Positions 50,237 to 64,000 are shown, counted from the first letter of the stretch. The stretch is DNA of 64,000 nucleotides from Gammaproteobacteria bacterium (GCA_965116895.1 OZ220729.1:1882122-1946121), one strand, 5' to 3'. The notes: generated from the sequence alone by a model not told the origin. Numbers and translations are program-made.

Positions 50237-50344
50237 ACTCGCTATATCGCCGGGCGGGAAATCATTTCCAGGACATCCGGCTGCCTGATAAGATTCGCCC
50301 GGTTGCGCCCGGAGGATTCCGAACGACGCGTCAGGGGGAATAGA

Positions 50345-51298
50345 GTGCGGGAAAACAAAATACGAATTCATCGGCGGCGGCTGGTCCAGACAATGCTGGC
50401 CGCACCGCTGGCATACGTCTGGGCGCGGACAGGCGCGGACCAGGCGTTTTCTGCATCCGAATCGGCGCCGTCGGCGGCCGCGCGACGGATCCGCCGGCGC
50501 TACGTGGACGGGCGCTTCGGCCAGGTGCATGTGCATATTGCCGAAGCCCTGGATGAAACCGCACGGCGCACGCCGTTGATGTGCTTTCATCCCACGGCCT
50601 TGTCGGGGGACTTCTATCGCGATTACATGCTGGCGATGAGTCTCGACCGGCGGGTCATGGCGATGGATACGCCGGGCTACGGCCGATCGGATCCGCCGCC
50701 TGAACCGCAGCCGATGAGCGAACTGGCCGGCGCCGCGGCCGACACGCTGGTCGCGCTCGGCTACGGGGCGGATGGCGAAGGCGCCGTGGACGTGATCGGC
50801 TACCACACGGGAACCTTCATCGCTGCGGAACTGGCCATTGTCCGGCCGGATCTGGTGCGCCGCCTGGTGCTGCCCGGCATCCCCTACCGCGTCGGCGAGG
50901 AGCGCGAGGCGCTGTACGAGCAGTACGCCCGGCCCAGTGAGCTCAAGGAAGACGGCTCGAACGCGATGGAAGTGTGGCGCTTCTGGGTGACCGACCGACA
51001 CCCGGATGTTTCGTTGCAACGCGGCGCTTCGCACTTTGTCGATCACCTGCAGTCGGGCCCCTACGCGTGGTGGGCGTATCACAGCGTGTTCAGCTACCCG
51101 GCCGAAGAACGTCTTCCTCTGGTGCGGCAGCCCGTTCTGGTGCCCAACACGCACGGCAATCTCAATGAACCGTCCCGCGAAGCCGCGAAGCTGCTGAATG
51201 ATGTGCGGGTGGTGGAAATGCCTGACCTGAGCCACGGCGCATTCGATGTCGGCGCGGACCGGCTGGCCGACGTTTCCCGCGAATTTCTGGATCAATGA
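50345..51298 (+). CDS. Alpha/beta-hydrolase-fold protein with atypical nucleophile elbow (GYHTG), possibly exported
   Basis: GTG 50345 after GGGGGA (alternative ATG 50393). N-terminal extension IHRRRLVQTMLAAPLAYVWA looks signal-like. Core is homologous to 10545..11360 (MDTPGYGRSDPPPEP; VIGYHTGTFIAAELAIVRPDLVRRLVLPG). Confidence 0.65.
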   Translation: MRENKIRIHRRRLVQTMLAAPLAYVWARTGADQAFSASESAPSAAARRIRRRYVDGRFGQVHVHIAEALDETARRTPLMCFHPTALSGDFYRDYMLAMSLDRRVMAMDTPGYGRSDPPPEPQPMSELAGAAADTLVALGYGADGEGAVDVIGYHTGTFIAAELAIVRPDLVRRLVLPGIPYRVGEEREALYEQYARPSELKEDGSNAMEVWRFWVTDRHPDVSLQRGASHFVDHLQSGPYAWWAYHSVFSYPAEERLPLVRQPVLVPNTHGNLNEPSREAAKLLNDVRVVEMPDLSHGAFDVGADRLADVSREFLDQ

Positions 51299-52116
51299 AC
51301 ATGAATTTTGAGCGAGTCGCAAAACTGGGCGCGGAGGTTTCGGGCGTTGAGCTGACGCCGGACCTTGCACAGGATGTCATCGACGAGATAGAACAAGGAA
51401 TACTGGAACACAGAGTTCTGTTTTTCCGGGACCAGGAACTGAACGGAGAAGAACTCGTCGACTTTTCCCGCCGCTTTGGCGAGAGCTTCGTCCAGCCGGC
51501 GCTGGCGCACAAGTACCAGGAACTGCTGTTTCTGGAGAACGACAAAAGCAAGCCGCCCACGCTCAACACCTTTCACCAGGACATGACCGGCCTGGCGCAA
51601 CCCCCGGCGCTGCACATGCTGCACGCGCTGATCGTGCCCGATGGGGGCGGCGACACCATGTGGGCCTGCAACTACAGCGCCTACGAATCCCTCTCGGACG
51701 AAATGAAGCGGATACTCGGCAGCCTGACGTGCACCCACACCATACTCGGGTACTACGAACCGATCGTAAGGAACTGGGAGAACGCCGAGGAGACGCTGAA
51801 GGAGTTCAGGGAGATATTCCCGCCGGTGTCGCATCCGCTGGTGAGGACCCACCCGCAAACCGGCCGCAAGTCACTGTTCGTCAACCGCTTCTTCACCAAT
51901 TTCATCAACGGTTTCACTCCCCAGGAAAGCGAAAACCTGCTTCAGTTCCTGTACAAGCACATCGAAACGCCCGAATTCTGCGTGCGGCTGCGCTGGCGTC
52001 CCGGCACCCTGGCGATCTGGGACAACCGCTGCACCTCCCACTACGCGCTGGCCGACTACTGGCCGCAGCACCGCAAGATGCAGCGCGCCTCGGTCTCGGG
52101 CGACACGCCCTTCTAG
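51295..52116 (+). CDS. Fe(II)/2-oxoglutarate dioxygenase, TauD/TfdA family
   Basis: ATG overlapping the previous stop (ATGA). HxD in TFHQDMTG, GGGDTMWA, distal His in RCTSHYA. 273 aa. Confidence 0.8.
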   Translation: MNMNFERVAKLGAEVSGVELTPDLAQDVIDEIEQGILEHRVLFFRDQELNGEELVDFSRRFGESFVQPALAHKYQELLFLENDKSKPPTLNTFHQDMTGLAQPPALHMLHALIVPDGGGDTMWACNYSAYESLSDEMKRILGSLTCTHTILGYYEPIVRNWENAEETLKEFREIFPPVSHPLVRTHPQTGRKSLFVNRFFTNFINGFTPQESENLLQFLYKHIETPEFCVRLRWRPGTLAIWDNRCTSHYALADYWPQHRKMQRASVSGDTPF

Positions 52117-53651
52117 CCCAATTCCTCGCGCAGGCCCTTGACGAGGCCGACGCACATGCACAGCAGCACAAGAGTAAAGGGCAGGCCCACCGAAAGCGTC
52201 AGCGCCTGCAGCGAGGCCATGCCGCCGCCCAGCATCAGCGCCATCGCGGCGAGGCCGGCCAGCAGGCACCAGAAGGCGCGTTGCTGAACCGGCGCGTCCA
52301 TCTTCCCGCCGGCCGTAATGGTGTCCACTACCAATGATCCCGAGTCGGCCGAGGTGACAAAGAAGATCGTGATCAGGAGCACGCTGACGGCCGAGACGAT
52401 TCCGGTCATCGGCAAAGGCTCCAGCATCTTGAACAAGGCCAGTTCGGGCACCGATTCCGCCACCCCGGTATAACCGCCGGAGAAGTACTGGTCCAGCGCG
52501 GCGCCGCCGAACGTCGCCATCCACAGGATTCCGATGATCGTCGGGACGATCAGCACCCAGGTGATGAATTCGCGCACGGTGCGCCCAAAACTGATGCGCG
52601 CGATGAACATGCCCACGAACGGCGCCCAGGCGACCCACCAGGCCCAGTAGAAGGTTGACCAGTCGCGCACGAAAGCCACGTCCTCGCGGCCGATCCAGTT
52701 GCTCAGTGCCGGCAGGTAATAGACATAATCGACGCCCGCGTTGGCGATCGTCGCGAGAATCACCAGCGTGGGTCCCGCGACCAGGACGAACAGCCACAAC
52801 AGGGCCGCAAGCACCATGTTGATCCAGCTCAGGCGCTTGACGCCCTTGTCCAGCCCGGCGATGACGGACGCCAACGCGATGCCGATGATGACCATGATCA
52901 GAACGGCCCTGGTGGCGACGGTCGCGGGAATCCCGAACAGGTATTGCAGTCCGCCGGCGATCTGTTCGGCGCCGAAGCCCAGCGACACCGCCAGCCCGAA
53001 CAGGGTCGCCAGCACCGCCACGATGTCCACGGCGTGACCGAAGGGCCCCCAGACCGACTTGCCGATCAGCGGGAAGAAACCGGAGCGCATCGTCAGCGGC
53101 ATGCCGCGATTGAAACAGAAGAATGCCAGCGACAGGCCCGCGACGGCGTATATGGCCCAGGCGTGCAGCCCCCAATGCAGGATCGCCGCGGACATGCCGA
53201 CGGCCCGCGCGGTCGCGGTGTCGGCGGGATCGACGCCGAGCGGCGGCGCCAGGGTGTGGGTCACGGGCTCAAGGACGCCGAAGAACATCAGGCCGATGCC
53301 CACACCCGCCGCGAACAGCATGGCCAGCCACGCGGAATAGCCGTACTGGGGCGCCGCGTCCCGTCCCCCGAGGCGAATCCGTCCCAACGGAGACAGCGCG
53401 AGGCCGAGGCAGAACAGGACGAAGAGGTTCGACGCGGCGAAGTAGAACCAGTCGAACGTCGTGGTCGTCCAGACCCTCAGATCAGCGAACAGCGTCGCCG
53501 CCTGCTGCCGGAACAGCAAGGTTCCGATCACCAGTATGACCACCAGCGCGGCGGAAACGATGAAGACCGGATTGTGGATGTCGAGCCCAAGGAAGCGGAT
53601 ATTCTGCTCGCCGATCTTGTGGCCGATATCGGGCGCCGCCTTGGAGTTCAT
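52113..53651 (-). CDS. BCCT-family (betaine/carnitine/choline) transporter
   Basis: ATG at 53651 (MNSKAAPDIGHKIGEQNIRFLGLDIHNPVF). BCCT-like core including the Trp-rich segment FYWAWWVAWAPFVGMFIARIS. The track extension to 53903 is not credible. Confidence 0.85.
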   Translation of the reverse strand: MNSKAAPDIGHKIGEQNIRFLGLDIHNPVFIVSAALVVILVIGTLLFRQQAATLFADLRVWTTTTFDWFYFAASNLFVLFCLGLALSPLGRIRLGGRDAAPQYGYSAWLAMLFAAGVGIGLMFFGVLEPVTHTLAPPLGVDPADTATARAVGMSAAILHWGLHAWAIYAVAGLSLAFFCFNRGMPLTMRSGFFPLIGKSVWGPFGHAVDIVAVLATLFGLAVSLGFGAEQIAGGLQYLFGIPATVATRAVLIMVIIGIALASVIAGLDKGVKRLSWINMVLAALLWLFVLVAGPTLVILATIANAGVDYVYYLPALSNWIGREDVAFVRDWSTFYWAWWVAWAPFVGMFIARISFGRTVREFITWVLIVPTIIGILWMATFGGAALDQYFSGGYTGVAESVPELALFKMLEPLPMTGIVSAVSVLLITIFFVTSADSGSLVVDTITAGGKMDAPVQQRAFWCLLAGLAAMALMLGGGMASLQALTLSVGLPFTLVLLCMCVGLVKGLREELG

Positions 53652-55618
53652 ATCGCGAAGCGCCGCCGCACGTCTTCGCCAAGCGCATCCCTGAGCGGGT
53701 CGAGCCAGGATTCGTAGTTGCGCCAGTAGTCCAGTCCCGCCTTGAAAATCGGCTGGCGGACCTGCTCCGAACTCGGGGTGCGCACCGCCCTTTCCGTGCG
53801 GTGAAAGCTCAGGCACCCCGGTTCGAAGTCGAGTCCGCAGTGGTCGAGAATCCGGCGCACCTGGGTTTCGAGGTCGCCCACCACTTCCTCGTACTGGACG
53901 CACAGCACCTTGCCGGGAAGCACCGTGTCCCAGTGGTCCATGAGTTCCACGTAATCGCGATAGTACTGTCCGAGGTCCGCCAGGTCGTAGGTGAATTGCT
54001 GGCCTTCGGCGAAGAGCTGCTTGTAGCCGCTGAAGCCGCAGGCCATGGGGTGCCGCCTGGCGTCGATGATCTTCGCATTGGGCAGCATCAGGTGAATCAG
54101 TCCGATGTGGCGGAAGTTGTTCGGCATCTTGTCGACGAAAAACGGAGCGTCCTGGCGGTGAATCCGGGTGTCGTCGATGTACTGCTGCCCGAACTGTCGC
54201 AGTTCCTCATCCGACAGTGTCGCCAGGATCTCGGGATAGTCCGGTTCGGGCCCGCTACGCCCGCGCCGTCGCAACTGCTGCGCCAGCGACAGGACGTTCG
54301 GCAGTTCCAGGGTTCCGTCCACCCGCGAATGGGATGAAAGAATCTGTTCCAGCAGAGTTGATCCGGCGCGCGGCAGCCCGACAACGAAAATCGGATCGCC
54401 GGCGGAATGCCCCGCCTCCGCGCCGCGCGACAACATACCGGCGACGCACACCCGATGCTGGGCGCGCAGTTCCTCCGTCATCTTGTCCGCGTCGTAGCGG
54501 CTCGCAGCCTTCTTCGAGCGGTTGCCCTGCTCGTAGAACCGGAACGAGGTCTCGAAGTCTTCGCGGTCCTCGTAGGCCTTGCCCAGGGCGAAGTTCAGAT
54601 GCACGCGGTCGGCATGGGACAGATCATTCTTCCCGGCCTGCGCATGCATCCGCTCGAGTTCGCGGTCGCTGAACGAATAGACCTTCAGGTTGGACAGCGA
54701 ATACCAGGCTTCGCCGTGGCGTGGCTGGCTCGCGAGCGCCGCCCGGTAGGAGGCGACAGCCTCGTCGTACTGGCCGTGGGTCTTGAGCGCATGGCCCTTC
54801 GAGGTAAGCGTGACCGGGTCGCCCGGAATCTTCTCCAGCACCCTGTCGAAAAGACCCAGCGCCTCCTCGTAGTCGCCGGTCTGCATGCATTCGATCGCGT
54901 AGATCGACTGGAACTGCGGATTGCCGGGCGAGGTCTCAAGCAGCAGCCTGGCCTGCTCGAGGGCCTTTTCGAATTTCTGGCGCTTCCTGAGCGCCTGGAT
55001 GTAGTCCATGTGCACCCGCACGTTCTTCGGATCGAACTGGTGCGCCGACTCGAGCAGGAATTCTGCGTCCGCCAGGACCCCGAAGCGGATGCCGATGTCG
55101 GCCAGCAGCCGCATGGCTTCCACGTGGTGCGGCACTTTCCTGAGAAACTTGCGGCACAGGTCCTCCGCCTTGAGCAGCTTGCCCTGGCTCATGAGGTCGA
55201 GGACGATGACGAGCGGCCGCGGCAACTGCTCAAAGTGGTCAATCTGGGCTTTCGCTTGCGCAGCCTCCCGGAGGCGCCCGCTCCGGGCCAGGATGTTCAG
55301 TTGCCCCCTCCAGCTCGCCACCAGCGCCGGGTTGAACCGGCACGCCTGCGCATACGCCCGCAACGCCTGGGCCGGACGGCCCATGTCGCGGTACGCGTGG
55401 CCCTCCTCCTGGTGTGCCCGGCCGTTCTCGGGCGCGAGGGCTTTCAGCCTGGCGAGCTGCGCCAGCGCCGCATCGAACTCGCCACGGTAGCGGCGGCAGA
55501 CCGCGCTCATGTACAGCGCGTCGGTGTTTTCCGGCTCGTCCCTGAGGATGTCATAGAGGTCGGCCAGCGCTTCGTCAAACTGCTTCCCGACGATCCTGGC
55601 CTGAATGGCATCCAGCAC
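53648..55618 (-). CDS. TPR-repeat protein fused to a PAPS-type sulfotransferase domain
   Basis: GTG start. The N-terminal ~380 aa are TPR-like repeats. The C-terminal domain has a 5'-PSB-like loop VVGLPRAGSTLLEQILSSHS and a Sulfotransfer-type core (FVDKMPNNF, RHPMACGFS). The stop overlaps the BCCT start (ATGA). Confidence 0.8.
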   Translation of the reverse strand: MLDAIQARIVGKQFDEALADLYDILRDEPENTDALYMSAVCRRYRGEFDAALAQLARLKALAPENGRAHQEEGHAYRDMGRPAQALRAYAQACRFNPALVASWRGQLNILARSGRLREAAQAKAQIDHFEQLPRPLVIVLDLMSQGKLLKAEDLCRKFLRKVPHHVEAMRLLADIGIRFGVLADAEFLLESAHQFDPKNVRVHMDYIQALRKRQKFEKALEQARLLLETSPGNPQFQSIYAIECMQTGDYEEALGLFDRVLEKIPGDPVTLTSKGHALKTHGQYDEAVASYRAALASQPRHGEAWYSLSNLKVYSFSDRELERMHAQAGKNDLSHADRVHLNFALGKAYEDREDFETSFRFYEQGNRSKKAASRYDADKMTEELRAQHRVCVAGMLSRGAEAGHSAGDPIFVVGLPRAGSTLLEQILSSHSRVDGTLELPNVLSLAQQLRRRGRSGPEPDYPEILATLSDEELRQFGQQYIDDTRIHRQDAPFFVDKMPNNFRHIGLIHLMLPNAKIIDARRHPMACGFSGYKQLFAEGQQFTYDLADLGQYYRDYVELMDHWDTVLPGKVLCVQYEEVVGDLETQVRRILDHCGLDFEPGCLSFHRTERAVRTPSSEQVRQPIFKAGLDYWRNYESWLDPLRDALGEDVRRRFAI

Positions 55619-55690
55619 GGCTTTGGCGCCGCCCCGGGGGCGGTAATCACCTCGGGAGCCGGGACCTCCGGCATGGCCGGACGCGACAAC

Positions 55691-55712
55691 GGCGTCCTCC
55701 GGGGAGGACGCC
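55691..55712 (-). terminator. GC-rich palindromic hairpin downstream of TBDR-5 (possible terminator or attenuator)
   Basis: ggcgtcctcc-gg-ggaggacgcc: 10-nt arms that are exact reverse complements, 32 nt after the TBDR-5 stop. It is followed on the minus strand by gttgtcg. Confidence 0.4.
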
Positions 55713-55743
55713 GTGTCCGTTCGTGTTGCCGTATCCGGGTCGG

Positions 55744-58371
55744 TCAGAAGTTCACGCTCGCGCGTACGCCGAATGTCCTGGGTTGCGCATACGTGACGTG
55801 CTTGGTGTCGAAGACGAATGAGCGCGACACCTCGGCCCGTTCATCGGTCAGGTTGCTGCCGAAAAGCGTCACCGACCAGTTGTCGCTGGCCACGCCCGCC
55901 GTCAGGCCGAGCATCGTCCAGCTATCGATCCGGTCGCGGTTGATGGTAATGATGTCGCTGTACGAATCCGCGGACCAGGTAATCATGGGCATGACGTGCG
56001 CCGTCCACCCATTGGCCTGCAGGGTCCACTCGTAGCGCGCCCGCAGATTGCCCTGGTTGCCCGGGGCGAACGCAAGCTCGTCCCCCTCGCGCACATCGTT
56101 GGTGGGGGTGATCTTCCGCGTGATCTCGGAGTCCAGCAAGGACAGCGCGCCGGCGATCGTGAGCCCGTCGATGCCGGGGGGCAGCCAGACGAAGTCCGCC
56201 TCCAGACCCCTCACCCTCGCGTCCGCCGCATTGTCCGAGAAGAACAGGTTGACGATGCTGGTATCGAAGATCGTGGTCTGCAGATTGTCGATATCGACGT
56301 TGAACAGCGCCGCGTTAATGCGGAAGGCGTTACCGAAATCGGCTTTCATGCCCACTTCGACATTGACGACTTCGTCGGTTTGCAGCTCAAAGGGAACCAC
56401 GAAACCGCTGCCATCCGCGCTCGGGCGCCCGCCCGGGCGATTCAACAGGCCCGGCCGGAAGCCCTCCGACAGCGTGACGTAGTAGAGGTGCTCCGGCTGC
56501 GGCCGCCACCCGAGCGTCGCCTTGAAGATCGTGCCGTCGGCTACCGCCTTGTCGGGCGCGCCCACGGCGTTGCCGGGCATGAACTGCTGCGAAATGTTGG
56601 TGCCGAAGCGCTGCCCGTCAGTTCTGTTTGCGCCGAAATTCCCGAACGACGAGTTGGCGCTGCCCTCGAGGTCCACCTCGATCTCGTAATTGCGCGCGCC
56701 CAGCGTCAGCGTGAACTGCTCGGTGAGGTCGAAGTCCAGTTCGCCGAAAACGCCGAACTGATCATCCGTGCGCCGGATGTCGTTGCGGAAGATGACCCCG
56801 ATGTCGCCGCCGTGGCGATCCGGACCGAATGGCCCCGGGTAGGTGTAGTAACCGGGGCCGGCGCCGAACGCACTTCCGGCAGGATTACCGGGAGCCGCTC
56901 CAGGATTGGTCAGCGGGTAGTTCGGCGCGAACCCCGGATGCCCGTTCCACGAGATGGCCCAAACGGAACCCGGATAGATGAAGTCGTTGACCTCGATGAG
57001 TTCCAGTTCGCTTGTAAACACACCGCCCTGGAGCCGCCACCGCCTCGACTGGTCCGTGGTGAAGCGGATTTCATGCGTCTGGACGTCGAGCCTGTTGAGG
57101 CTGTCCACGTACATTTGCGGCGGGTGACACCTCGTGCCTGCACGGGGAATGCCCGGAGGACTGTTGAATGACGTATACGTCGCGTAGTAATCGCAGATGT
57201 AGTAAGGCAGGTACTGACCCACGAACAGGTAGTCGGAGTAGTCCACGATCTGGTCCGACTCGCGGTCCGTGAACGCGCCTGCGTAGATGACGTCCAGCCC
57301 CGCCAGCCGTCCCGTGAGCGTCACGGCCGTGTTGTCGAAAGTGTCGAAGATGCCTTCATTCACGAAGCGGTTGACTTCCAGTTCGCCGACATCGGGATCG
57401 GCGAAGAACACACCGTCCGCCTCGGTATCCTGGGTCGTATGCGCAACCAGCAGACTCCAGTCGTCGGTGATGTCCCATTTCGCCGAGATCCGGCCGCCGC
57501 TGTAGGTGACTTCGTTGATGTCTTCGTCGGCTATCGCGCTGTTGTCGACCTCAAAGAACGTGATATTGGAAAGATCCACTCCCGCCTGGAATCCGGCGCG
57601 ATAGGAGGCGACGGGGACTCCGTTCTTGCGAACCGCACCCGCGGGCCGGAACCGTGCACTCTCCTCGGCGGTCCTCGTAGCGGCCACATTGTCGATCCAG
57701 CCGCCCTTGCTGTCGTGGTAGAAGACGCCGCGCAAACCGAAGTTGTCGCTTAAGGGAACGTTCAGCATGACTTCGATGCTCTCACCCCCGTCGCCGCCGC
57801 TGATCGTGTTCGCGCCGAGCTTCGCATTGCCGTAAAACTCGTTCAGGTCCGGCTTGTTCGTGATCAGGCGGACGTTGCCGGCCTGCGAACTGGCCCCGAA
57901 CAACGTGCCCTGGGGACCCGAGAGCACTTCGATGCGCGCCAGGTCCGCGGCGTAAACGTCGAGATTGCGGCCCGGATGCGCCAGCGGCTGTTCATCCAGG
58001 TAAAAGGCGACGTTGGGCGCCAGGCCGGCCACGCCGGCCACAGTCAGGTTCGGCGTCGTGGAAGCCACGCCGCGAATGTAGATGGTGTTCTGGCCCGGTC
58101 CGCTGCCGCCGGCTGTCACGTTCGGCAGCTGCAGCACGTAGTCCGCGAAATTGGTGACCCCGAGTTCGGTGATCTCGCGCGTGTCCAGGGCGGTCACGGC
58201 AAGAGGAACATCCTGCAGCGATTCCTGGACGCGCCTCGCGGTAACCACGATCTCGTCGAGCACCCGCCCGCCGGCAGCCTCCTGCGCCGACGCCGCGACC
58301 GGCGCGCCGACAATCGCAGCGGCTACCGCAGCGGACAATACGCTTTGTTTCGTTGGTACATTAATCGCCAT
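55744..58371 (-). CDS. TonB-dependent receptor (TBDR-5)
   Basis: ATG 58371 after GGGAGA. Signal MAINVPTKQSVLSAAVAAAIVGAPVAASAQE, plug LDEIVVTARRVQESLQDVPLAVTAL, ends ..GVRASVNF. Confidence 0.85.
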   Translation of the reverse strand: MAINVPTKQSVLSAAVAAAIVGAPVAASAQEAAGGRVLDEIVVTARRVQESLQDVPLAVTALDTREITELGVTNFADYVLQLPNVTAGGSGPGQNTIYIRGVASTTPNLTVAGVAGLAPNVAFYLDEQPLAHPGRNLDVYAADLARIEVLSGPQGTLFGASSQAGNVRLITNKPDLNEFYGNAKLGANTISGGDGGESIEVMLNVPLSDNFGLRGVFYHDSKGGWIDNVAATRTAEESARFRPAGAVRKNGVPVASYRAGFQAGVDLSNITFFEVDNSAIADEDINEVTYSGGRISAKWDITDDWSLLVAHTTQDTEADGVFFADPDVGELEVNRFVNEGIFDTFDNTAVTLTGRLAGLDVIYAGAFTDRESDQIVDYSDYLFVGQYLPYYICDYYATYTSFNSPPGIPRAGTRCHPPQMYVDSLNRLDVQTHEIRFTTDQSRRWRLQGGVFTSELELIEVNDFIYPGSVWAISWNGHPGFAPNYPLTNPGAAPGNPAGSAFGAGPGYYTYPGPFGPDRHGGDIGVIFRNDIRRTDDQFGVFGELDFDLTEQFTLTLGARNYEIEVDLEGSANSSFGNFGANRTDGQRFGTNISQQFMPGNAVGAPDKAVADGTIFKATLGWRPQPEHLYYVTLSEGFRPGLLNRPGGRPSADGSGFVVPFELQTDEVVNVEVGMKADFGNAFRINAALFNVDIDNLQTTIFDTSIVNLFFSDNAADARVRGLEADFVWLPPGIDGLTIAGALSLLDSEITRKITPTNDVREGDELAFAPGNQGNLRARYEWTLQANGWTAHVMPMITWSADSYSDIITINRDRIDSWTMLGLTAGVASDNWSVTLFGSNLTDERAEVSRSFVFDTKHVTYAQPRTFGVRASVNF

Positions 58372-58442
58372 AGTCCCCAATCTCCCGGCGGCTCAATGCT
58401 GAGCCAACTCCCATACTGTAACCCATAGATTTTGCCGGCCGA

Positions 58443-59984
58443 TTATCGCCCCATGGCAGCCCGGGACAGAAGGATCGGGAACCCGGACCGCACGCCAGCG
58501 TCGATCTCGTCGCTGACGTGGCGCGGCGCCGGATCGGCGAGGACTTCCCGCTTCTTTTCGGCAGCCCGATTCAGCAGCGCCGGCTTGCCTTTTTCTTCCC
58601 AGACGGTCGGGCTGTCCCGGTCGCTGAAGTCGGGGTATATGTACTCGCTTTGCATCACCTGCAGGGTACTCCCCGAACCCAGGTAATGCCCTTCGCCGCC
58701 GGCGCAGATCTGCTCGATCTCGGCGAAGCTCAGCGTCTCCGGGCTCACTTCGATCCCCCGTGTAACGCGCCCGACGGCGCCAAGAACGTCGTTGTCCAGC
58801 AAGAGGCTCTCCGGGCAGGTCCCCAGCAGGCTGGCGTACATGCCGGCGGATTCATAAACGATGTTCGCCCCGGACAAGGCGGCCGCCAGCACGGTTGCCG
58901 CGCGTTCCGCCCCGGCCTGAAAGTCGGGGAACTTGGCGTCGGTCATGCCGCAGGCGGTGCCGAAGGGAAGGTCGAAGTGGAGGCCGAGCTGGGCGCAGGC
59001 GGCGGACAGCAGACCTTGCTCGGGCGAGCCGCCGCTCATCGCCCCGGTGCGCAGATCCGAAACAAACGGCCAGGCGCCGAGAATCGCCGGCGCGCCGGGT
59101 TTGATCGCGTTGACATAGACCAGCCCACCGAGACACTCCGCCCAGGCTTGGGAAACCGCCCCGGCCAGATAGGCGGGGGTCGTTGCGCCGGCCTGCCCCG
59201 CCGACAGCAGCAGCACCGGCATGCCGCCCTCTACGGCCACGCGCAGGCACTCGAGGGCGTCGGTGGCGAACTTCATCGGCGGCACCACAAAACAGTTGGA
59301 CTGGCTGACGAAGGGACGCGCCCGCCACTCGGCCTCGCCGCCGGCGATCAGATGCAGCATCTCGAGGCTCTGCTCCACGTGCCCGGGCAGCGTCCAACTC
59401 GAACCGACGTGCTTGCTGGTGCCCATCACCGAGCAGTAGAGGGTATTGATGTCCATTTCGTAGTTGTCGCGAATGTCCCGGGGCACGCAGGTGCGCTGGA
59501 ACATGTGAATGTGCTCGCAGGTGTCGACGATACGCGCCATGTCGTACAGATCCTGCGCCAGCGAATCCCGGTAAAGGTTGTTTTCCGTGTCGGCCACCAT
59601 GACCGCGGCGCCGGCGGTGGAGAAGTGCACTCTGGCGCCGCTCAGATCGAGGTCTCTGCGCGGATCCTGCCCATGGAGCACCAGATTCCGCCGGGCCAGT
59701 TCGAGGGTTCGCTCGACCAGGCTTGGGGGCATGCGCAGGCGCCCGTCCTCGCCGAGCACGGCGCCGACCGCCGTGCAGGTCTCGATGCAGTGAGGCGTGG
59801 CGTCGGCGAATCCCACCCTGTCGAGAATCTCGAAGGCATTGTCCGCTATGGCCGTAACGCCGTCGGCGGACAAGGGCCGGTACTGTCCTCCGGCATGCCC
59901 CGGCCGAACCGGCTTGATCGCTTCGGCAAGCGGCGCGGCGCGCTCGGCCCTTCTGGCCCGTCTACCGCCCGATCGTCGAGGCAT
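58443..59984 (-). CDS. MttB-superfamily methyltransferase, non-pyrrolysine type (quaternary-amine:corrinoid methyltransferase-like)
   Basis: 513 aa uninterrupted ORF with no in-frame TAG. MttB-like TIM-barrel segments (FEILDRVGF, HFSTAGAAVMV, PVLLLSAGQAGATTPAYLAG, SGANIVYESAGM). Confidence 0.8.
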   Translation of the reverse strand: MPRRSGGRRARRAERAAPLAEAIKPVRPGHAGGQYRPLSADGVTAIADNAFEILDRVGFADATPHCIETCTAVGAVLGEDGRLRMPPSLVERTLELARRNLVLHGQDPRRDLDLSGARVHFSTAGAAVMVADTENNLYRDSLAQDLYDMARIVDTCEHIHMFQRTCVPRDIRDNYEMDINTLYCSVMGTSKHVGSSWTLPGHVEQSLEMLHLIAGGEAEWRARPFVSQSNCFVVPPMKFATDALECLRVAVEGGMPVLLLSAGQAGATTPAYLAGAVSQAWAECLGGLVYVNAIKPGAPAILGAWPFVSDLRTGAMSGGSPEQGLLSAACAQLGLHFDLPFGTACGMTDAKFPDFQAGAERAATVLAAALSGANIVYESAGMYASLLGTCPESLLLDNDVLGAVGRVTRGIEVSPETLSFAEIEQICAGGEGHYLGSGSTLQVMQSEYIYPDFSDRDSPTVWEEKGKPALLNRAAEKKREVLADPAPRHVSDEIDAGVRSGFPILLSRAAMGR

Positions 59985-60043
59985 GGCTGCTCTCCGTTAC
60001 ATGCGAGTTGAAAGACGCCGAAAGCATAGCTTGTTCCCGGGGG

Positions 60044-60943
60044 TCAGCCCCGACGGCGACGGCGGCCCCGACGGGCCCCGCGAGCCCCGGCCGGCGCACC
60101 GGGTTCGCGGTACTTGCCGATCCAGCGCGCGCAATCGGGATCCTTGCCCATCATGACATCGGCGCCGAGGACCGCCTGCACGACCTCGACGTGCAGCGGA
60201 TTGGTGATCGCCGAAGTCATGCCGGCGCCGATCGCCATGGTAAGGAATGCGCTGTTGATGCCGTTGCGATTCGGCAGGCCGAAACTCACATTGGACGCGC
60301 CGCAGGTGGTATTGACCTTCAGTTCCCCGCGCAACCGCCTGACCAGGTGCATGACCTGTTTGCCGGCGGCGTTGATCGCGCCGATCGGCATGACCAGAGG
60401 ATCGACCACGACATCGCTCGGGGAAATGCCGTGGTCCTGCGCCCGTTCGACGATTTTTCTGGCCACTTCGAAGCGCACGTCCGGATCCTCGGAAATGCCG
60501 GATTCATCGTTGGAGATGGCCACCACCGCGGCGCCGTGCCGGGCTACCAGCGGCAGCACAGTCTCCAGCCTGTCCTCTTCGCCCGTGACCGAGTTGACCA
60601 GCGCCTTGCCCCGATAGACCGCCAGTCCGGATTCCAGCGCGGCGACGATGGACGAATCGATAGACAGCGGCACATCGGTTACCGACTGCACCAGCCTGAT
60701 GGCCTCGGCCAGCATGGCGGGTTCGTCCGCCAGCGGGATTCCGGCGTTCACGTCCAGCATGTGGGCGCCCGCCTCAACCTGGGCGAGGGCGTCCGCGACC
60801 ACGCGATCGTAGTTGCCCGCCTTCATTTCCTCCGCAAGGATTTTCCGCCCGGTGGGGTTGATACGCTCGCCTATGATCACGAAGGGCCGGTCGAAACCGA
60901 TCACGACCTCCCGGCTGGCGGAGGCGACTACCGTGTCCGTCAT
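60044..60943 (-). CDS. Pterin-binding methyltransferase (methyltetrahydrofolate:corrinoid methyltransferase, MetH/AcsE/MtrH-like)
   Basis: FVIIGERINPTGRK, GAHMLDVNAG, PLSIDSS, ALVNSV, CGASNVSFGLP: the pterin-binding (DHPS-like) barrel signature. Confidence 0.8.
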   Translation of the reverse strand: MTDTVVASASREVVIGFDRPFVIIGERINPTGRKILAEEMKAGNYDRVVADALAQVEAGAHMLDVNAGIPLADEPAMLAEAIRLVQSVTDVPLSIDSSIVAALESGLAVYRGKALVNSVTGEEDRLETVLPLVARHGAAVVAISNDESGISEDPDVRFEVARKIVERAQDHGISPSDVVVDPLVMPIGAINAAGKQVMHLVRRLRGELKVNTTCGASNVSFGLPNRNGINSAFLTMAIGAGMTSAITNPLHVEVVQAVLGADVMMGKDPDCARWIGKYREPGAPAGARGARRGRRRRRG

Positions 60944-60958
60944 GCCTCGGCCACCGGC

Positions 60959-61279
60959 TTACGCATCCGGCGTCTCCTCCAGACCGTGATTGCGAATGAG
61001 CGCCAGCAGGCTCTCATCCGAGTATCGCGCTTCGATCCCGGCCGCAAGCCTTTCGGCGACCGCCTGCAGATCGTCCGCCGCGGCATCCGACCCGGGCCTG
61101 ATCGGTTCCCGCGCCCATTCGCTGAGATAGGCATCGGCGCTTTGCTTCTTCGCCCGCATGGCGGCGCGATCGATGGCGTTCTGGAAGCGCCCGCTCAACC
61201 GCGCCCTTGCGCGCAGCCTGCCCTTCCTGACAATCACCTGTGCGGGAATGTCGCGCCACTTCACCAGGACGGCGTTCAT
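60959..61279 (-). CDS. Small conserved protein often found in corrinoid-methyltransferase clusters (tentatively the family annotated 'virulence factor'); function unknown
   Basis: ATG 61279 (MNAVLVKWRDIPAQVIVRKG...) or ATG 61318. The family assignment is from memory of the WRDIPAQV-type N-terminus and is tentative. Confidence 0.45.
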   Translation of the reverse strand: MNAVLVKWRDIPAQVIVRKGRLRARARLSGRFQNAIDRAAMRAKKQSADAYLSEWAREPIRPGSDAAADDLQAVAERLAAGIEARYSDESLLALIRNHGLEETPDA

Positions 61280-61333
61280 GGCGTCAGCCCGCTTCCTCCC
61301 GGCGGACCCGAATCCCATTCGGAGCGACCCGCG

Positions 61334-62059
<726 letters not shown>

Positions 62060-62072
62060 GCCAACTACCTCC

Positions 62073-62107
62073 AACCACCGAACTTCAGCCTCGAAAGTTC
62101 AGTGGTT
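62073..62107. promoter_or_regulatory. Imperfect 13-bp inverted repeat in the divergent corrinoid-operon / DMGDH intergenic region (candidate operator or 5'-UTR hairpin)
   Basis: aaccacCgaactt (62073-62085) and aagttcAgtggtt (62095-62107) match at 12 of 13 positions, with a 9-nt spacer. It starts 14 nt upstream of the corrinoid-protein ATG. Confidence 0.3.
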
Positions 62108-62245
62108 CCAGGACGGGATCCCGGCCGATCCTGCGGCCCACGGCGGCATATTAGCAGTCATGAATCGACATCCGCAATGGAAAAACGCGACTATTGCAAG
62201 TGAGCGCCAACTTCCGTGAGAATCGCTTCAGGCCCGGAGGGCGCC

Positions 62246-64000
62246 ATGCAGAAACAGGCTCGAATTGTCATCGTCGGCGGCGGCATCATGGGCGTCGGCC
62301 TGCTGTATCACCTGGCGGCCGAGGGATGCGCCGACGTCCTGCTGATCGAGAAGGGCGAGTTGACTTCGGGCTCGACCTGGCACGCGGCCGGTCAATGCCC
62401 CAACCTGGTCGGCGACTACAACCTCGCCAAGATCCACGAATACAGCATTTCCCTGTACAGGAAACTGGAGCACCTGACCGGACAGTCGGTCACCTGGCAC
62501 GACTGCGGCAGCGTCCGCTTTGCCCTCACCGAGCAGGACCTGGACTGGTTCCGCTACCTGCGCGGGATCGCCGCGAATGTCGGTTACCACATGGAGATCG
62601 TGGACGTTGCAAAGATCGGCAAGCTGAATCCCTTTGTCTCGACCGAAGGCGTGCTGGCCGGCGCCTGGACCCGCAACGACGGCCATGCCGACCCGTTCGG
62701 GCTGACCCAGGCGATGGCGAAGGGAGCGCGCAGCCTCGGCGCCGGGATCGTGCGGCACAACCGGGTGATCGGGATTGAATCCATGCGCGGCGGAGAGTGG
62801 AAAGTGATGACCGAGCAGGGGCCGGTCATCGCCGAAACCGTTGTCAACGCAGCCGGCTGCTTCGCCCGGCAAGTGGCGGGGATGGTGGGAGCGGATCTTC
62901 CGATCTGCAACATCAAGCACCACTATCTCGTCTCCGGCCCGGTGCCGGAACTGGCCGGCAGAAGTGAAGAACTCCCCGTAACCCGCGACCCCTATGCCTC
63001 CGTCTACCTGCGCCAGGAGCAGGAGTCCGGCCTGATCGGCATCTACGAGTCCGAAGGGCTCAGCGAAGCCTGGCAGCCGGGCGGACTGCCGCCCTGGGAG
63101 TCCGACAGCGAGCTGTTCGAGGACGAACTCGAGCGCCTGATGCCCTGGCTGGAGCGGGCCATGGAGCGCATGCCGATCTTCGAACCGGCTGGCATCAAGC
63201 GGATCGTCAATGGCGCCATCTCCCACAGCCCCGACGGTCTGCCGCTGCTCGGCCCGGTGGCGGGCCTGAGCAATTTCTGGCTGTGCTGCGGCTCGTCGTT
63301 CGGCATTGCCCAGGGCGCCGGCTGCGGCAAGTACCTGGCCCAGTGGATGTTGCATGGCGATTCCGAAATCAACATGACCGGGTTCGATCCGCGGCGATTC
63401 GGAGTGTTTGCCGATGCCGGCTACATGAGCGCCAGGGGGCGCCAGGACTATGCCAGGACCTACGTCACTCCGCCTCCGGGGGAAGAACTGCCGGCGGCCC
63501 GCCGATGCCGGACCAGCCCCCTCTATGACAAGCTCAAGGCCCAGGGTTGTGTCTACACCGACACCTTCGGCTGGGAGCGGCCCAAGTGGTTCTCTCCCGA
63601 CGGCCGCGAGGAGCAATACAGCTTTCGACATAACAACGTGTTCGAGCTGGTGCGCGAAGAGTGCCTGGCCGTGCGCGAGCGGGTCGGCCTCCTGGACCTC
63701 TCCGGGTTCTCCAAGTACGACGTGACGGGTCCCGATGCCAGCACGATGCTGAATCGACTCTGCGCCAACCGTGTGCCGACAGCGGGCCGCATCGCGCTCA
63801 CCCACCTGCTGTCCGAGGGCGGGCGCATCGGCGCCGAAATGACCATCACCCGGCTGGACGACGAGACCTTCTACGTGCTTTCCGCCGCCGGCGCCGAACT
63901 GCGCGATCTCGACCACCTGACACAGGGCCGGCTCCCCACGGAGCAGACGCATGTGGCCAATGTCACCGACCGGCGGGGGGTCCTGGTGCTGGCCGGACCG
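62246..64000 (+). CDS. FAD-dependent dimethylglycine/sarcosine dehydrogenase-like protein with GcvT-type folate-binding domain (3' end outside the window)
   Basis: Not in the ORF track because it has no stop in the window. ATG 62246 is followed by 585 open codons to base 64000. MQKQARIVIVGGGIMGVGLLYHLA (dinucleotide fold), SGSTWHAAGQ (covalent-FAD His context of the DMGDH/SARDH family), and the later GcvT-like region (SPLYDKLKAQGCVYTDTFGWERPKWF, LLDLSGFSKYDV). Confidence 0.85.
   Translation, partial: MQKQARIVIVGGGIMGVGLLYHLAAEGCADVLLIEKGELTSGSTWHAAGQCPNLVGDYNLAKIHEYSISLYRKLEHLTGQSVTWHDCGSVRFALTEQDLDWFRYLRGIAANVGYHMEIVDVAKIGKLNPFVSTEGVLAGAWTRNDGHADPFGLTQAMAKGARSLGAGIVRHNRVIGIESMRGGEWKVMTEQGPVIAETVVNAAGCFARQVAGMVGADLPICNIKHHYLVSGPVPELAGRSEELPVTRDPYASVYLRQEQESGLIGIYESEGLSEAWQPGGLPPWESDSELFEDELERLMPWLERAMERMPIFEPAGIKRIVNGAISHSPDGLPLLGPVAGLSNFWLCCGSSFGIAQGAGCGKYLAQWMLHGDSEINMTGFDPRRFGVFADAGYMSARGRQDYARTYVTPPPGEELPAARRCRTSPLYDKLKAQGCVYTDTFGWERPKWFSPDGREEQYSFRHNNVFELVREECLAVRERVGLLDLSGFSKYDVTGPDASTMLNRLCANRVPTAGRIALTHLLSEGGRIGAEMTITRLDDETFYVLSAAGAELRDLDHLTQGRLPTEQTHVANVTDRRGVLVLAGP

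What the first reader, a model, noticed from the sequence alone, without database searches (positions are those of the whole stretch)
58443..64000. Corrinoid-dependent (MttB-family) demethylation module plus DMG-dehydrogenase in an apparently aerobic organism, with no reductive activase in sight
- **Minus strand:** corrinoid protein (DxHxxG), a small unassigned protein, a pterin-binding methyl-THF methyltransferase, and a non-Pyl MttB-superfamily methyltransferase with no in-frame TAG.
- **Divergent gene:** a DMGDH/SARDH-like flavoprotein (STWHAAG).
- **Established:** non-Pyl MttB members demethylate glycine betaine, proline betaine, carnitine or gamma-butyrobetaine (MtgB, MtpB, MtcB, MtyB) in anaerobes. 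They use a corrinoid protein, a methyl-THF-forming MT2 and an ATP-dependent RamA-type reductive activase. Dimethylglycine, the product of betaine demethylation, is the DMGDH substrate.
- **Inference:** the locus encodes betaine to DMG to sarcosine with methyl transfer to THF. The host also encodes ACIII and several O2-dependent dioxygenases, so it is presumably aerobic. No RamA-like gene lies between 58443 and 62245. The only unexplained gene is the ~106-aa protein at 60959-61279. How Co(I) is maintained and what the true substrate is remain open.
Basis: partly seen in the sequence, partly recalled or inferred. Interest (0 to 1): 0.6.

Follow-up and report, generated by a model that had tools for sequence, protein, structure and literature searches.

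The report
Cobalamin betaine-demethylase operon missing its activase
This is a vitamin-B12-dependent methyl-removal operon of a kind described in aerobic marine bacteria in 2025, here in a sponge-type gammaproteobacterium whose copy has cleanly lost the two genes thought to keep B12 active but kept a small unstudied partner protein.

Summary
In detail: mtgC-like corrinoid protein, a 106-aa protein, a pterin-binding methyl-THF methyltransferase and a non-Pyl MttB-family gene lie on the minus strand, divergent from a DMGDH-like gene. No RamA or DUF1638 occurs anywhere in the 64 kb.

The headline is no longer new. Cobalamin-dependent MtgBCD betaine demethylation in aerobic marine bacteria, often beside DMGDH and reactivated by RamA-like plus DUF1638 proteins, was published in 2025 (PMC12478193; also PMC5764234).

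Three points go beyond that.
- **Activase loss.** Sister genomes carry mtgC-DUF1638-PF13769-mtgD-ramA-mttB. The window is collinear with them except for two clean deletions that remove exactly DUF1638 and ramA. The remaining genes are under purifying selection.
- **The small protein.** It is Pfam PF13769 ("Virulence_fact"). It is a near-universal member of this cassette and is fused to RamA in at least 22 protein clusters. I found no paper naming the accession PF13769.
- **The MttB.** It belongs to a clade with Gly/Gly/Glu/Leu in place of the four experimentally defined glycine-betaine-binding residues of MtgB. The substrate therefore rests on context (DMGDH pair, BCCT transporter), not homology.

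Whether the activase is encoded elsewhere in this genome could not be tested.

The parts
61334..62074 (-). mtgC-like corrinoid (cobalamin-binding) protein. The likely start is the ATG at 62059.
   Evidence: PF02607 + PF02310 and a DxHxxG motif (GDIHDIG). NCBIfam MtgC, MtbC and MetH B12-domain models hit but fall below their cut-offs. Identity to sister loci is 90-95%.
61280..61333 (-). mtgC-PF13769 intergenic region holding the junction of the DUF1638 deletion.
   Evidence: The window is collinear with L010 except that L010:5971-6558, the DUF1638 gene, is missing. The DUF1638 3' end and stop codon (GGCTGA) survive 4 nt upstream of the PF13769 ATG. The junction is shared with L092, L002 and L014.
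60959..61279 (-). PF13769 ('Virulence_fact') small protein, 106 aa. It is a conserved accessory of the cobalamin methyltransferase/activase cassette.
   Evidence: Pfam E=1e-19. In metagenomic loci with enough flank, DUF1638 lies directly upstream in 65/67, mtgD within 3 kb downstream in 32/32, and ramA within 4.5 kb downstream in 21/26. It is fused to the N-terminus of RamA in at least 22 protein clusters. The AlphaFold2 model has pLDDT 88 and no PDB fold match. dN/dS is 0.15-0.41.
60044..60943 (-). mtgD-like methylcobalamin:tetrahydrofolate methyltransferase (pterin-binding).
   Evidence: PF00809. NF005719 scores 357.6 bits against a cut-off of 259. dN/dS is 0.05-0.14.
59985..60043 (-). mtgD-mttB intergenic region holding the junction of the ramA deletion.
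   Evidence: L010:7845-9887, the whole ramA gene, is absent. The flanks are collinear at about 88% identity. The junction is shared with L092, L093, L001, L003 and L006.
58443..59984 (-). Non-pyrrolysine MttB-superfamily methyltransferase, called 'class B' in this report. It is the predicted substrate:corrinoid methyltransferase.
   Evidence: PF06253, E=3e-108. It is equidistant from D. hafniense MtgB and M. barkeri MttB structures (E about 1e-53). Identity is 55% to S. meliloti LZK74_28410 and 25-29% to MtgB-like proteins. It has G125/G342/E378/L386 at the MtgB glycine-betaine-binding columns, a pattern invariant in 80/80 orthologues.
62075..62245 (.). Divergent intergenic region between mtgC and the DMGDH gene; presumed shared control region.
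   Evidence: There is no consensus sigma-70 match and no riboswitch at Rfam gathering threshold.
62246..64000 (+). Dimethylglycine-dehydrogenase-family flavoprotein, N-terminal 585 aa; the gene runs off the window.
   Evidence: DAO + FAO_M + GCV_T. 461 bits, E=4e-137, to rat DMGDH. The full length is 804 aa in L092, followed by an 818-aa paralogue.
55744..58380 (-). TonB-dependent receptor directly downstream of mttB on the same strand.
   Evidence: Plug + TonB_dep_Rec_b-barrel. It sits next to class-B mttB in many sister loci.
53648..55618 (-). TPR-repeat / sulfotransferase-domain protein.
   Evidence: Sulfotransfer_3, E=1.5e-51, plus TPR repeats. It is syntenic with the TonB-dependent receptor and the BCCT gene in sister loci.
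52113..53651 (-). BCCT-family (betaine/carnitine/choline) transporter. Its start overlaps the stop of the upstream gene.
   Evidence: PF02028, E=2e-166. The start was placed and from the 512-aa gene call in L092.

Best explanation
The locus is an aerobic-type, cobalamin-dependent quaternary-amine demethylation operon of the MtgBCD kind.

**Proposed pathway (all steps inferred)**
1. A BCCT transporter imports the substrate, most likely glycine betaine.
2. The MttB-family enzyme passes one N-methyl group to Co(I) on the MtgC-like corrinoid protein.
3. The MtgD-like enzyme passes it on to tetrahydrofolate.
4. The divergently encoded DMGDH and its paralogue just past the window end remove the other two methyl groups as methylene-THF.
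5. A formate dehydrogenase nearby completes C1 oxidation.

**Origin of this operon (shown by sequence comparison)**
- It derives from a fuller cassette, mtgC-DUF1638-PF13769-mtgD-ramA-mttB.
- Two old, clean deletions removed exactly DUF1638 and ramA, the genes implicated in ATP-dependent Co(II) to Co(I) reactivation.

**Inferred consequences**
- Reactivation is supplied in trans by a RamA-type activase encoded elsewhere in the genome.
- The retained 106-aa PF13769 protein is a cofactor-less accessory of that activase/corrinoid module. It may act as a docking or adaptor subunit at the [2Fe-2S] electron-entry end of RamA.
For: **Gene identities:**

**Published precedent**
- RamA and DUF1638 are induced there.
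- The clusters sit beside downstream demethylation genes in marine Alpha-, Gamma- and Deltaproteobacteria (PMC12478193).
- RamA-like and DUF1638 proteins are genetically required for the split methionine synthase of P. inhibens (PMC5764234).

**Full cassette in sister genomes**
- L005, L007, L010-L013 and L029-L037 carry the full cassette. Pfam confirms Fer2 + RACo domains and DUF1638.

**Deletions**
- The window is collinear with L010 except for the DUF1638 and ramA genes. A DUF1638 stop-codon scar remains.
- Both junctions are shared among several genomes.

**Selection**
- dN/dS is 0.05-0.41 for all five genes at dS 0.16-0.75, so the system is still in use.

**Substrate context**
- Class-B mttB lies within 10 kb of the DMGDH gene, its paralogue or both in most of the 80 sister loci. 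The TBDR-TPR/sulfotransferase-BCCT trio is often adjacent.
- An aldehyde dehydrogenase and a formate dehydrogenase lie beyond the window end in the contig that is about 96% identical.

**PF13769**
- Cassette statistics in 80 metagenomic loci.
- The same cassette occurs in Azoarcus, Sinorhizobium and Terrarubrum and in four divergent contigs.
- There are 22 fusion clusters with RamA.
- No Cys or His is conserved.
Against: - No RamA or DUF1638 was seen anywhere in 64 kb.
- Five chromosome-scale relatives lack operonic ramA (contigs of 3,529,867; 3,390,704; 2,952,370; 2,571,329; and 3,471,662 bp). None appears among the contigs carrying the 120 best RamA clusters or their listed members. Relatives with operonic ramA do appear there. 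That listing is incomplete and stops near 65% identity.
- The MttB here lacks all four glycine-betaine-binding residues of D. hafniense MtgB. These include R312, reported as conserved in all characterised acidic-quaternary-amine members (PMC13080624).
- A second, MtgB-like paralogue ('class A', keeping Y/R/H) exists in related genomes.
- No metF2-type gene for methyl-THF oxidation lies in the operon.
- The role of PF13769 rests only on gene order and fusion. Nothing here is experimental.
Confidence: 0.6

Rival explanations
1. The machinery is the same, but the MttB substrate is not glycine betaine. It could be another methylated amine, possibly a non-acidic one such as choline, a methylamine or a sponge-derived betaine. 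The active site lacks the carboxylate-binding Arg/His and has a Glu there instead.
For: - G/G/E/L replace Y97/R312/H348/F356, and this pattern is invariant in 80/80 orthologues.
- R312 is reported as conserved in all characterised members, whose substrates are all acidic. In D. hafniense MtgB, R312L abolished detectable activity, H348E left only a trace at very high glycine betaine, and F356L raised the Km several hundred-fold (PMC13080624).
- Related genomes also carry an MtgB-like class-A paralogue beside the core cassette.
- The closest R. pomeroyi paralogue (46% identity) sits with an aminotransferase and a TPP enzyme, not in an obvious betaine context.
- BCCT transporters also carry choline and carnitine.
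Against: - Class-B mttB is the paralogue that sits beside the DMGDH gene and its paralogue across the sister loci.
- The neighbouring flavoprotein matches mammalian DMGDH at E=4e-137.
- The S. meliloti 55% homologue also neighbours a DMGDH-like gene.
- R. pomeroyi induces two different MttB-family proteins on betaine, so a second active-site solution for betaine is plausible.
Confidence: 0.3
2. The lineage has truly lost RamA and DUF1638. It keeps cobalamin in the Co(I) state by another route, for example a different reductase or flavodoxin with SAM-type repair, or protection involving PF13769.
For: - Both reactivation genes were excised cleanly and long ago. The rest of the operon stays under purifying selection.
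- No closely related RamA was found on five chromosome-scale relatives lacking operonic ramA.
- PF13769 was retained.
Against: - The absence check is indirect and incomplete. Clusters show limited members, and the list stops at about 65% identity.
- In R. pomeroyi and P. inhibens the activase genes are unlinked from some of the core genes (mtgD in both; mtgC as well in the case of ramA), so unlinked activase genes have precedent.
- L001, L003 and L006 keep DUF1638 without operonic ramA. DUF1638 and RamA co-occur almost perfectly across Alphaproteobacteria, which predicts a ramA elsewhere.
- Every characterised system of this kind needs an activase.
Confidence: 0.1
3. The mtgC, PF13769 and mtgD genes mainly serve as the core of a split cobalamin-dependent methionine synthase. 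The mttB and DMGDH association would then be secondary.
For: - MtgC and MtgD are dual-function in R. pomeroyi.
- The cassette occurs without any mttB in several loci (L086, L090). PF13769 also sits next to an S-methyltransferase (MtgE-type) gene in L088.
Against: - No homocysteine-binding (PF02574) gene was found among the window ORFs scanned.
- In this lineage mtgC, PF13769 and mtgD are transcriptionally packed with mttB and flanked by a betaine-type transporter and the DMGDH pair.
- This rival is not exclusive of the best explanation.
Confidence: 0.15
4. The operon is a decaying remnant, inactive since it lost its activase genes.
For: Both reactivation genes are lost. In some relatives mtgD is also absent from the locus (L009, L017).
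Against: - All ORFs are intact.
- dN/dS is 0.05-0.41 (0.09-0.18 against other compact-layout genomes) at dS 0.16-0.75.
- The layout is conserved in at least six genomes or contigs.
Confidence: 0.04

Closest known systems
MtgBCD glycine-betaine demethylase / split methionine synthase of aerobic marine bacteria (Ruegeria pomeroyi DSS-3; Mausz et al., PNAS 2025, PMC12478193; also Hammer et al., bioRxiv 10.64898/2025.12.19.695462)
   Same: - It has the same three modules: a PF06253 methyltransferase, a B12-binding protein and a pterin-binding methyltransferase.
- The host is aerobic.
- It is co-located with DMG/sarcosine demethylation genes and a BCCT transporter.
- Reactivation is proposed to use RamA plus DUF1638.
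   Different: - This operon has lost ramA and DUF1638.
- It carries PF13769, which neither paper's main text mentions.
- Orthology of this MttB to the betaine-induced SPO2108/SPO2134 could not be tested.
- No metF2 or mtgE lies nearby.
Split methionine synthase with RamA-like and DUF1638 reactivation proteins of Phaeobacter inhibens (Price et al., PLoS Genet 2018, PMC5764234)
   Same: It has the same MtgC- and MtgD-type core. It also shows that the activase genes can be unlinked from core genes, which is the model for in-trans reactivation proposed here.
   Different: That system was defined for methionine synthesis. No MttB, DMGDH or PF13769 was discussed there.
MtgB/MtgC/MtgA of Desulfitobacterium hafniense and related MttB-superfamily enzymes of anaerobes (MtpB, MtcB, MtyB, MthB) (PMC13080624; PMC8604678; PMC12155760)
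   Same: The superfamily is the same (PF06253, TIM barrel, no pyrrolysine), and so is the three-component methyl-transfer logic ending on THF.
   Different: - Identity to D. hafniense MtgB is only 29%.
- All four glycine-betaine-binding residues are replaced by G/G/E/L.
- The host is aerobic.
- The corrinoid protein scores below the NCBIfam MtgC cut-offs.
RamA / RACo ATP-dependent reductive activases of corrinoid proteins (PF00111 + PF17650 + PF17651 + PF14574)
   Same: Sister operons encode exactly this architecture between mtgD and mttB. PF13769 is fused to its N-terminus in a Hyphomicrobiales-like clade.
   Different: The gene is absent from the window. The PF13769 N-terminal module is not part of the described RamA or RACo enzymes.
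Mammalian dimethylglycine dehydrogenase (PDB 4P9S, 4PAA, 5L46)
   Same: The domain order is the same: DAO, FAO_M, then the GCV_T folate-binding domain. The flavin-site motif is STWHAAG, and the match is E=4e-137.
   Different: This protein is bacterial and truncated by the window end. DMG versus sarcosine specificity was not resolved, and a 34-35%-identical paralogue follows it.

Membership tests
MttB superfamily (PF06253 / COG5598) | Full-length match to the MTTB profile | tested here: met
   E=3.1e-108 over residues 4-497. PDB relatives 9YCE/2QNE and 7XCL match at E about 1e-53.
Pyrrolysine-dependent trimethylamine methyltransferase MttB (TIGR02369) | In-frame UAG (Pyl) codon and a score above the equivalog cut-off | tested here: not met
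   The ORF has no internal stop. TIGR02369 scores 311 bits against a cut-off of 525. A marginal Rfam PYLIS_3 hit (39.1 bits against 38) lies in the homologous coding stretch, but no UAG is present.
MtgB glycine betaine:corrinoid methyltransferase (D. hafniense type) | Glycine-betaine-binding residues Y97, R312, H348 and F356 (PMC13080624) | tested here: not met
   The aligned residues are G125, G342, E378 and L386 in both the phmmer and MAFFT alignments. The pattern is identical in 80/80 orthologues. Identity to D. hafniense MtgB is 29%.
MtgB glycine betaine:corrinoid methyltransferase (aerobic R. pomeroyi type, SPO2108/SPO2134) | Orthology to the betaine-induced paralogues | not testable with these tools
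   The R. pomeroyi chromosomal sequences could not be retrieved. Only the megaplasmid paralogue was available, at 46% identity.
Methyltransferase-cognate corrinoid protein (MtgC/MtbC/MetH B12 module) | B12-binding cap plus Rossmann-like B12 domain with the DxHxxG base-off/His-on motif | tested here: met
   PF02607 and PF02310 both hit, and the motif is GDIHDIG. The NCBIfam anaerobe MtgC 'exception' models score 196 and 171 bits against cut-offs of 370 and 310, so it is not those exact equivalogs.
Methyl-THF:corrinoid methyltransferase (MtgD / MtgA / AcsE-like) | Pterin-binding TIM barrel scoring above the curated cut-off | tested here: met
   PF00809, E=2.9e-31. NF005719 scores 357.6 bits against a cut-off of 259.
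RamA / RACo reductive activase | Fer2 or Fer4 domain plus RACo linker, middle and ASKHA domains, encoded in or near the cluster | tested here: not met
   None is present in the 64-kb window (Pfam scans). It is present between mtgD and mttB in sister operons. Presence elsewhere in the source genome is not testable.
DUF1638 (PF07796) reactivation-associated protein | PF07796 gene next to mtgC | tested here: not met
   It is absent from the window. It has been deleted, leaving a stop-codon scar. In the metagenomic loci it lies directly upstream of PF13769 in 65/67 with enough flank.
PF13769 'Virulence_fact' | Profile match above the gathering score, with the conserved WRDIPxQ and RFQxAIDxAAM motifs | tested here: met
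   70.7 bits against a cut-off of 25. The invariant residues are W8, P12, L28, F32, D37, A40 and Y51. The family name reflects annotation only; no paper naming the accession PF13769 was found.
Dimethylglycine / sarcosine dehydrogenase family | DAO + FAO_M + GCV_T domain order, a flavinylation-site His motif and close similarity to characterised DMGDH | tested here: met
   All three domains are present. The motif is STWHAAG. The match to rat DMGDH is 461 bits. DMG versus sarcosine specificity was not tested, and the C-terminus lies outside the window.

The most novel reading that the evidence does not exclude
In this Foliamicus-like lineage the cobalamin methyltransferase system works under oxic conditions with no RamA and no DUF1638 anywhere in the genome. 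Co(I) would then be regenerated or protected by an undescribed route in which the retained PF13769 protein takes part.

A more modest component is much more likely, at about 0.6. It is that PF13769 is a so-far unrecognised subunit or adaptor of RamA-type activases throughout aerobic Proteobacteria.
Probability: 0.1. Interest if true: 0.75.

Novelty: new member of a known kind. Interest (0 to 1): 0.4.

Why it matters
Cobalamin-dependent betaine demethylation was recently recognised as a major route of N-osmolyte turnover in the oxic ocean. It ties vitamin B12 demand to carbon and nitrogen cycling. This locus extends that route to uncultured gammaproteobacteria whose closest relatives appear, from their MAG names, to come from sponge metagenomes.

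It also points to three testable gaps in the published model:
- **A missing part.** A fourth conserved small protein, PF13769, travels with the core cassette and is fused to the activase in some bacteria. I found no paper naming the accession PF13769.
- **A natural knockout.** One lineage has excised both presumed reactivation genes yet keeps the rest under selection. That makes it a good place to ask how Co(I) is maintained in air.
- **An unassigned enzyme clade.** A large MttB clade sits beside DMGDH genes but lacks the only experimentally defined betaine-binding site. Annotating such genes as betaine methyltransferases in ocean surveys may therefore be premature.

Tried and rejected
- **Source contig.** Exact-sequence look-ups of the window's MttB and MtgD found nothing.
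- **Contig-length test for trans-encoded RamA.** I matched contig lengths between operons lacking ramA and RamA protein clusters. No match was found for five chromosome-scale contigs. Cluster listings are partial and the hit list stops near 65% identity, so I treat this as inconclusive rather than as absence.
- **Other PF13769 fusions.** Ten longer family members showed no further informative domain. One carries an Aldedh fragment and looks like a chimera or mis-call. P0179, with 1,642 aa and 10 matched stretches, is a spurious repeat match.
- **Cobalamin riboswitch or other RNA element.** None was found at Rfam gathering thresholds. The single hit, PYLIS_3, is best explained by coding-sequence homology.
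- **Promoter and terminator scan.** It was uninformative in this 65% GC DNA: 0 promoter-like sites, and fewer terminator-like sites than in shuffled sequence.
- **Orthology to R. pomeroyi MtgB1/MtgB2.** The sequences were not obtainable, and the Ticak 2014 paper is not held.
- **Literature.** A search for the accession 'PF13769' returned no papers. Neither MtgBCD paper's main text contains the word 'virulence'.
- **Decay hypothesis.** Rejected on dN/dS.

Full report
**1. What is in the sequence**

The minus strand between 58443 and 62074 carries four tightly spaced genes.
- A corrinoid protein at 61334-62074 has the B12-binding cap and B12-binding domains and the motif GDIHDIG.
- A 106-aa protein lies at 60959-61279.
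- A pterin-binding methyltransferase lies at 60044-60943. NCBIfam NF005719 (methyl-THF:corrinoid methyltransferase) scores 357.6 bits against a cut-off of 259.
- A 513-aa MttB-family protein lies at 58443-59984 (PF06253, E=3e-108). It has no internal stop codon.

Gaps between these genes are 15-59 bp as ORFs, or 54 bp before the small gene if it starts at 61279.

A flavoprotein gene starts divergently at 62246 and runs off the window.
- It has DAO, FAO_M and GCV_T domains and the motif STWHAAG.
- It matches rat and human dimethylglycine dehydrogenase at E=4e-137.

**2. Wider context in the window**

More genes follow on the same strand downstream of mttB.
- A TonB-dependent receptor lies at 55744-58380.
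- A TPR/sulfotransferase protein lies at 53648-55618.
- A BCCT betaine/carnitine/choline transporter lies at 52113-53651.

Elsewhere the window encodes an alternative complex III (ActA, B, C, D). It also encodes TauD, PhyH and glyoxalase-family dioxygenases. These fit an aerobic lifestyle.

No RamA or DUF1638 homologue exists anywhere in the 64 kb.
- tblastn with a sister genome's proteins gave only chance-level fragments.
- The best RamA fragment is a reading-frame artefact of the query over the mtgD 3' end.
- The Pfam scans found none either.

An Rfam scan found no cobalamin riboswitch.

**3. Who it is**

The closest loci in the species-representative genome collection encode MttB at 77-92% amino-acid identity. 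They belong to uncultured Gammaproteobacteria.
- The named groups are Candidatus Foliamicus, Rariloculaceae, Azotimanducaceae and Pseudohongiella.
- Many of the isolate names look like sponge-metagenome bins. That is my reading of the names, not a tested fact.

An ENA contig, L092, is about 96% identical in DNA over 12 kb and has the same gene order. It shows what lies past the window end:
- the rest of the DMGDH gene (804 aa);
- an 818-aa paralogue;
- an aldehyde dehydrogenase;
- FdhD and FdsD;
- a formate dehydrogenase alpha subunit.

**4. It is a known kind of system**

Mausz et al. (PNAS 2025, PMC12478193) reported the following.
- Aerobic Ruegeria pomeroyi needs a cobalamin-binding MtgC and a pterin-binding MtgD to grow on glycine betaine.
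- PF06253 proteins, RamA and a DUF1638 protein are induced on betaine.
- In marine Alpha-, Gamma- and Deltaproteobacteria these genes often sit together with the later demethylation genes.

Price et al. (2018, PMC5764234) had already shown genetically that a RamA-like protein and a DUF1638 protein are required for the related split methionine synthase of Phaeobacter inhibens. Some of those genes are unlinked from one another.

One is a corrinoid-dependent MttB module in an aerobe. The other is how Co(I) is maintained.

**5. Why the activase is missing here**

I classified the 80 sister loci by tblastn and confirmed the key domains with Pfam.
- The full layout is DMGDH2-DMGDH | mtgC-DUF1638-PF13769-mtgD-ramA-mttB, followed in L010 by TBDR, TPR/sulfotransferase and BCCT.
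- It occurs in L005, L007, L010-L013, L029-L032, L036 and L037. L034 and L054 carry the same operon on contigs truncated on the DMGDH side.
- L001, L003 and L006 lack ramA only.
- The window, L002, L004, L014, L092 and L093 lack both ramA and DUF1638.

DNA alignment shows the window is collinear with L010 at about 88-90% identity. Two segments are the exception.
- L010:5971-6558 is the DUF1638 gene.
- L010:7845-9887 is the ramA gene.

At the first junction the last bases and stop codon of DUF1638 (GGCTGA) survive just upstream of the PF13769 start codon. The compact state is therefore derived by deletion.

Both junctions are shared by several genomes. Those genomes differ from the window by dS of about 0.3-0.5, so the deletions are old.

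All five genes have dN/dS of 0.05-0.41. The system has remained in use since the deletions.

**6. Is the activase elsewhere?**

I tried an indirect test.
- Chromosome-scale contigs of relatives with operonic ramA appear among the contigs that carry the best RamA protein clusters.
- The five chromosome-scale contigs without operonic ramA do not appear.
- However, the cluster listings are incomplete and the hit list ends near 65% identity. A more divergent RamA would be missed.

I therefore keep in-trans reactivation as the most likely answer, for two reasons.
- Unlinked activase genes have precedent in roseobacters.
- L001, L003 and L006 retain DUF1638, whose phyletic pattern tracks RamA.

I assign about 10% to genuine loss.

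**7. The small protein**

It is Pfam PF13769, 'Virulence_fact' (E=1e-19). A full-text search for that accession returned no papers. Neither MtgBCD paper's main text contains the word 'virulence'.

Its genomic context is very constant.
- In Azoarcus sp. KH32C the order is corrinoid protein, DUF1638, PF13769, MTHFR_C, MetF, MtgD, then an ASKHA (RamA-type) protein, next to betaine ABC-transporter genes.
- In Sinorhizobium meliloti the same set lies next to an MttB-family gene.
- Four divergent family members looked up individually sit in mtgC-DUF1638-PF13769-mtgD-ramA or partial versions of it. One sits next to a homocysteine-type S-methyltransferase.

I also scanned 80 metagenomic loci using HMMs built from the collected sequences. 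Counts are for loci with enough flank.
- DUF1638 is directly upstream of PF13769 in 65 of 67.
- mtgC is within 1.5 kb upstream in 40 of 47.
- MTHFR_C or MetF is directly downstream in 32 of 45.
- mtgD is within 3 kb downstream in 32 of 32.
- ramA is within 4.5 kb downstream in 21 of 26.

The strongest evidence is a gene fusion.
- In Terrarubrum flagellatum, PF13769 is fused to the N-terminus of a complete RamA-type activase (Fer2 + RACo linker, middle and ASKHA domains; 760 aa).
- At least 22 distinct 90%-identity clusters share this architecture, down to 59% identity and from four data sources.

The family has about 644 clusters at 50% identity and is mostly stand-alone at about 100 aa. It has no conserved Cys or His. 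The AlphaFold2 model is confident (pLDDT 88) with topology β-β-β-α-α-β-α-α, and it has no significant PDB fold match.

My inference, not shown, is that it is a cofactor-less accessory of the activase/corrinoid module. In the fusions it sits next to the [2Fe-2S] electron-entry domain. Its retention here suggests that its partner still exists, or that it also acts on MtgC or MtgD.

**8. The substrate**

The MttB here is about equally distant from D. hafniense MtgB and from Pyl-MttB (E about 1e-53).

Picking et al. (JBC 2026, PMC13080624) defined the betaine site of MtgB by structure and mutagenesis.
- Y97 and F356 hold the quaternary nitrogen.
- R312 and H348 hold the carboxylate.
- They state that R312 is conserved in all characterised members, whose substrates are all acidic.

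In the window protein these columns are G125, G342, E378 and L386. The pattern is identical in all 80 orthologues.

I call this clade 'class B'.
- It is 55% identical to S. meliloti LZK74_28410, which also lies near a DMGDH-like gene.
- It is 46% identical to an R. pomeroyi megaplasmid paralogue.

A different 'class A' paralogue sits beside the core cassette in Rariloculaceae and Pseudohongiella loci.
- It is 46% identical to D. hafniense MtgB.
- It keeps Tyr, Arg and His at those columns.

Homology therefore does not support calling the window enzyme a betaine methyltransferase. Context does support it.
- Class B is the paralogue that lies within 10 kb of the DMGDH gene, its paralogue or both in most sister loci.
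- It is often accompanied by its own mtgC copy and the TBDR-TPR/sulfotransferase-BCCT trio.

I put glycine betaine at roughly 0.6. The main alternative is another methylated amine, possibly a non-acidic one.

**9. Verdict**

- The missing activase is a lineage-specific deletion from a canonical cassette.
- The worthwhile residue is threefold: PF13769 as an undescribed cassette and activase partner, the natural double deletion, and the unassigned class-B active site.
- I rate the finding a new member of a known kind, with moderate interest.

Noticed in passing
window 58847-58946 (-): Rfam PYLIS_3 (the pyrrolysine insertion sequence of mttB) matches just above its gathering score, 39.1 bits against 38. 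The match lies inside this non-Pyl mttB homologue, starting one codon after Gly346, and there is no UAG. It most likely reflects coding-sequence homology rather than a functional element.
   Followed up: partly
window 52113-58380 (-); also L002, L003, L006, L010, L014, L019, L022, L051 and others: A trio of TonB-dependent receptor, TPR/sulfotransferase protein and BCCT transporter travels with class-B mttB in many sister loci, in either orientation. The roles of the receptor and the sulfotransferase-domain protein in a betaine pathway are unexplained.
   Followed up: partly
L008, L016, L018-L020, L022, L025, L035, L051, L055, L058, L061-L064, L066: Related genomes carry a second MttB paralogue ('class A'). 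It is 46% identical to D. hafniense MtgB and keeps Tyr, Arg and His of the betaine site. It sits beside the mtgC-DUF1638-PF13769-mtgD-ramA cassette, while class B sits by the DMGDH genes. This suggests two substrate modules sharing one core.
   Followed up: partly
L005 and L023 (both from OZ253475.1): One Foliamicus chromosome has two class-B loci. One is the full operon with ramA. The other holds only mtgC, mttB and a TonB-dependent receptor. So one activase may serve several corrinoid proteins in these genomes.
   Followed up: no
P0547 (992 aa) in the RamA cluster of P0413; 300-aa MtgD-like members in the cluster of P0408: MtgD-length proteins and a 992-aa protein are clustered together with RamA sequences. 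This hints at mtgD-ramA read-through or fusion gene calls in some assemblies.
   Followed up: no
window 13666-15492 (+), next to 12227-13699 (+): There is a full-length Peptidase_M2 (angiotensin-converting-enzyme family) homologue, E=8e-222. It lies directly downstream of a POT-family peptide transporter.
   Followed up: no
window 46616-48048 (+) and 51295-52116 (+): A PAPS-reductase-domain protein and an APS-kinase-domain protein lie a few kb from the sulfotransferase-domain gene. A TauD-family dioxygenase is divergent from the BCCT gene. Together they hint at a sulfur or sulfonate theme next to the betaine module.
   Followed up: no
window 48164-51370 (-): This is an unusually long (1,068 aa) TonB-dependent-receptor-like protein. 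Its Plug domain starts only at residue ~421, leaving a ~420-aa N-terminal region with no Pfam match.
   Followed up: no
L161 and L165 (metagenome contigs): Two unrelated metagenomic loci also have PF13769 without DUF1638 upstream and without ramA downstream. The compact state may therefore have arisen more than once.
   Followed up: no
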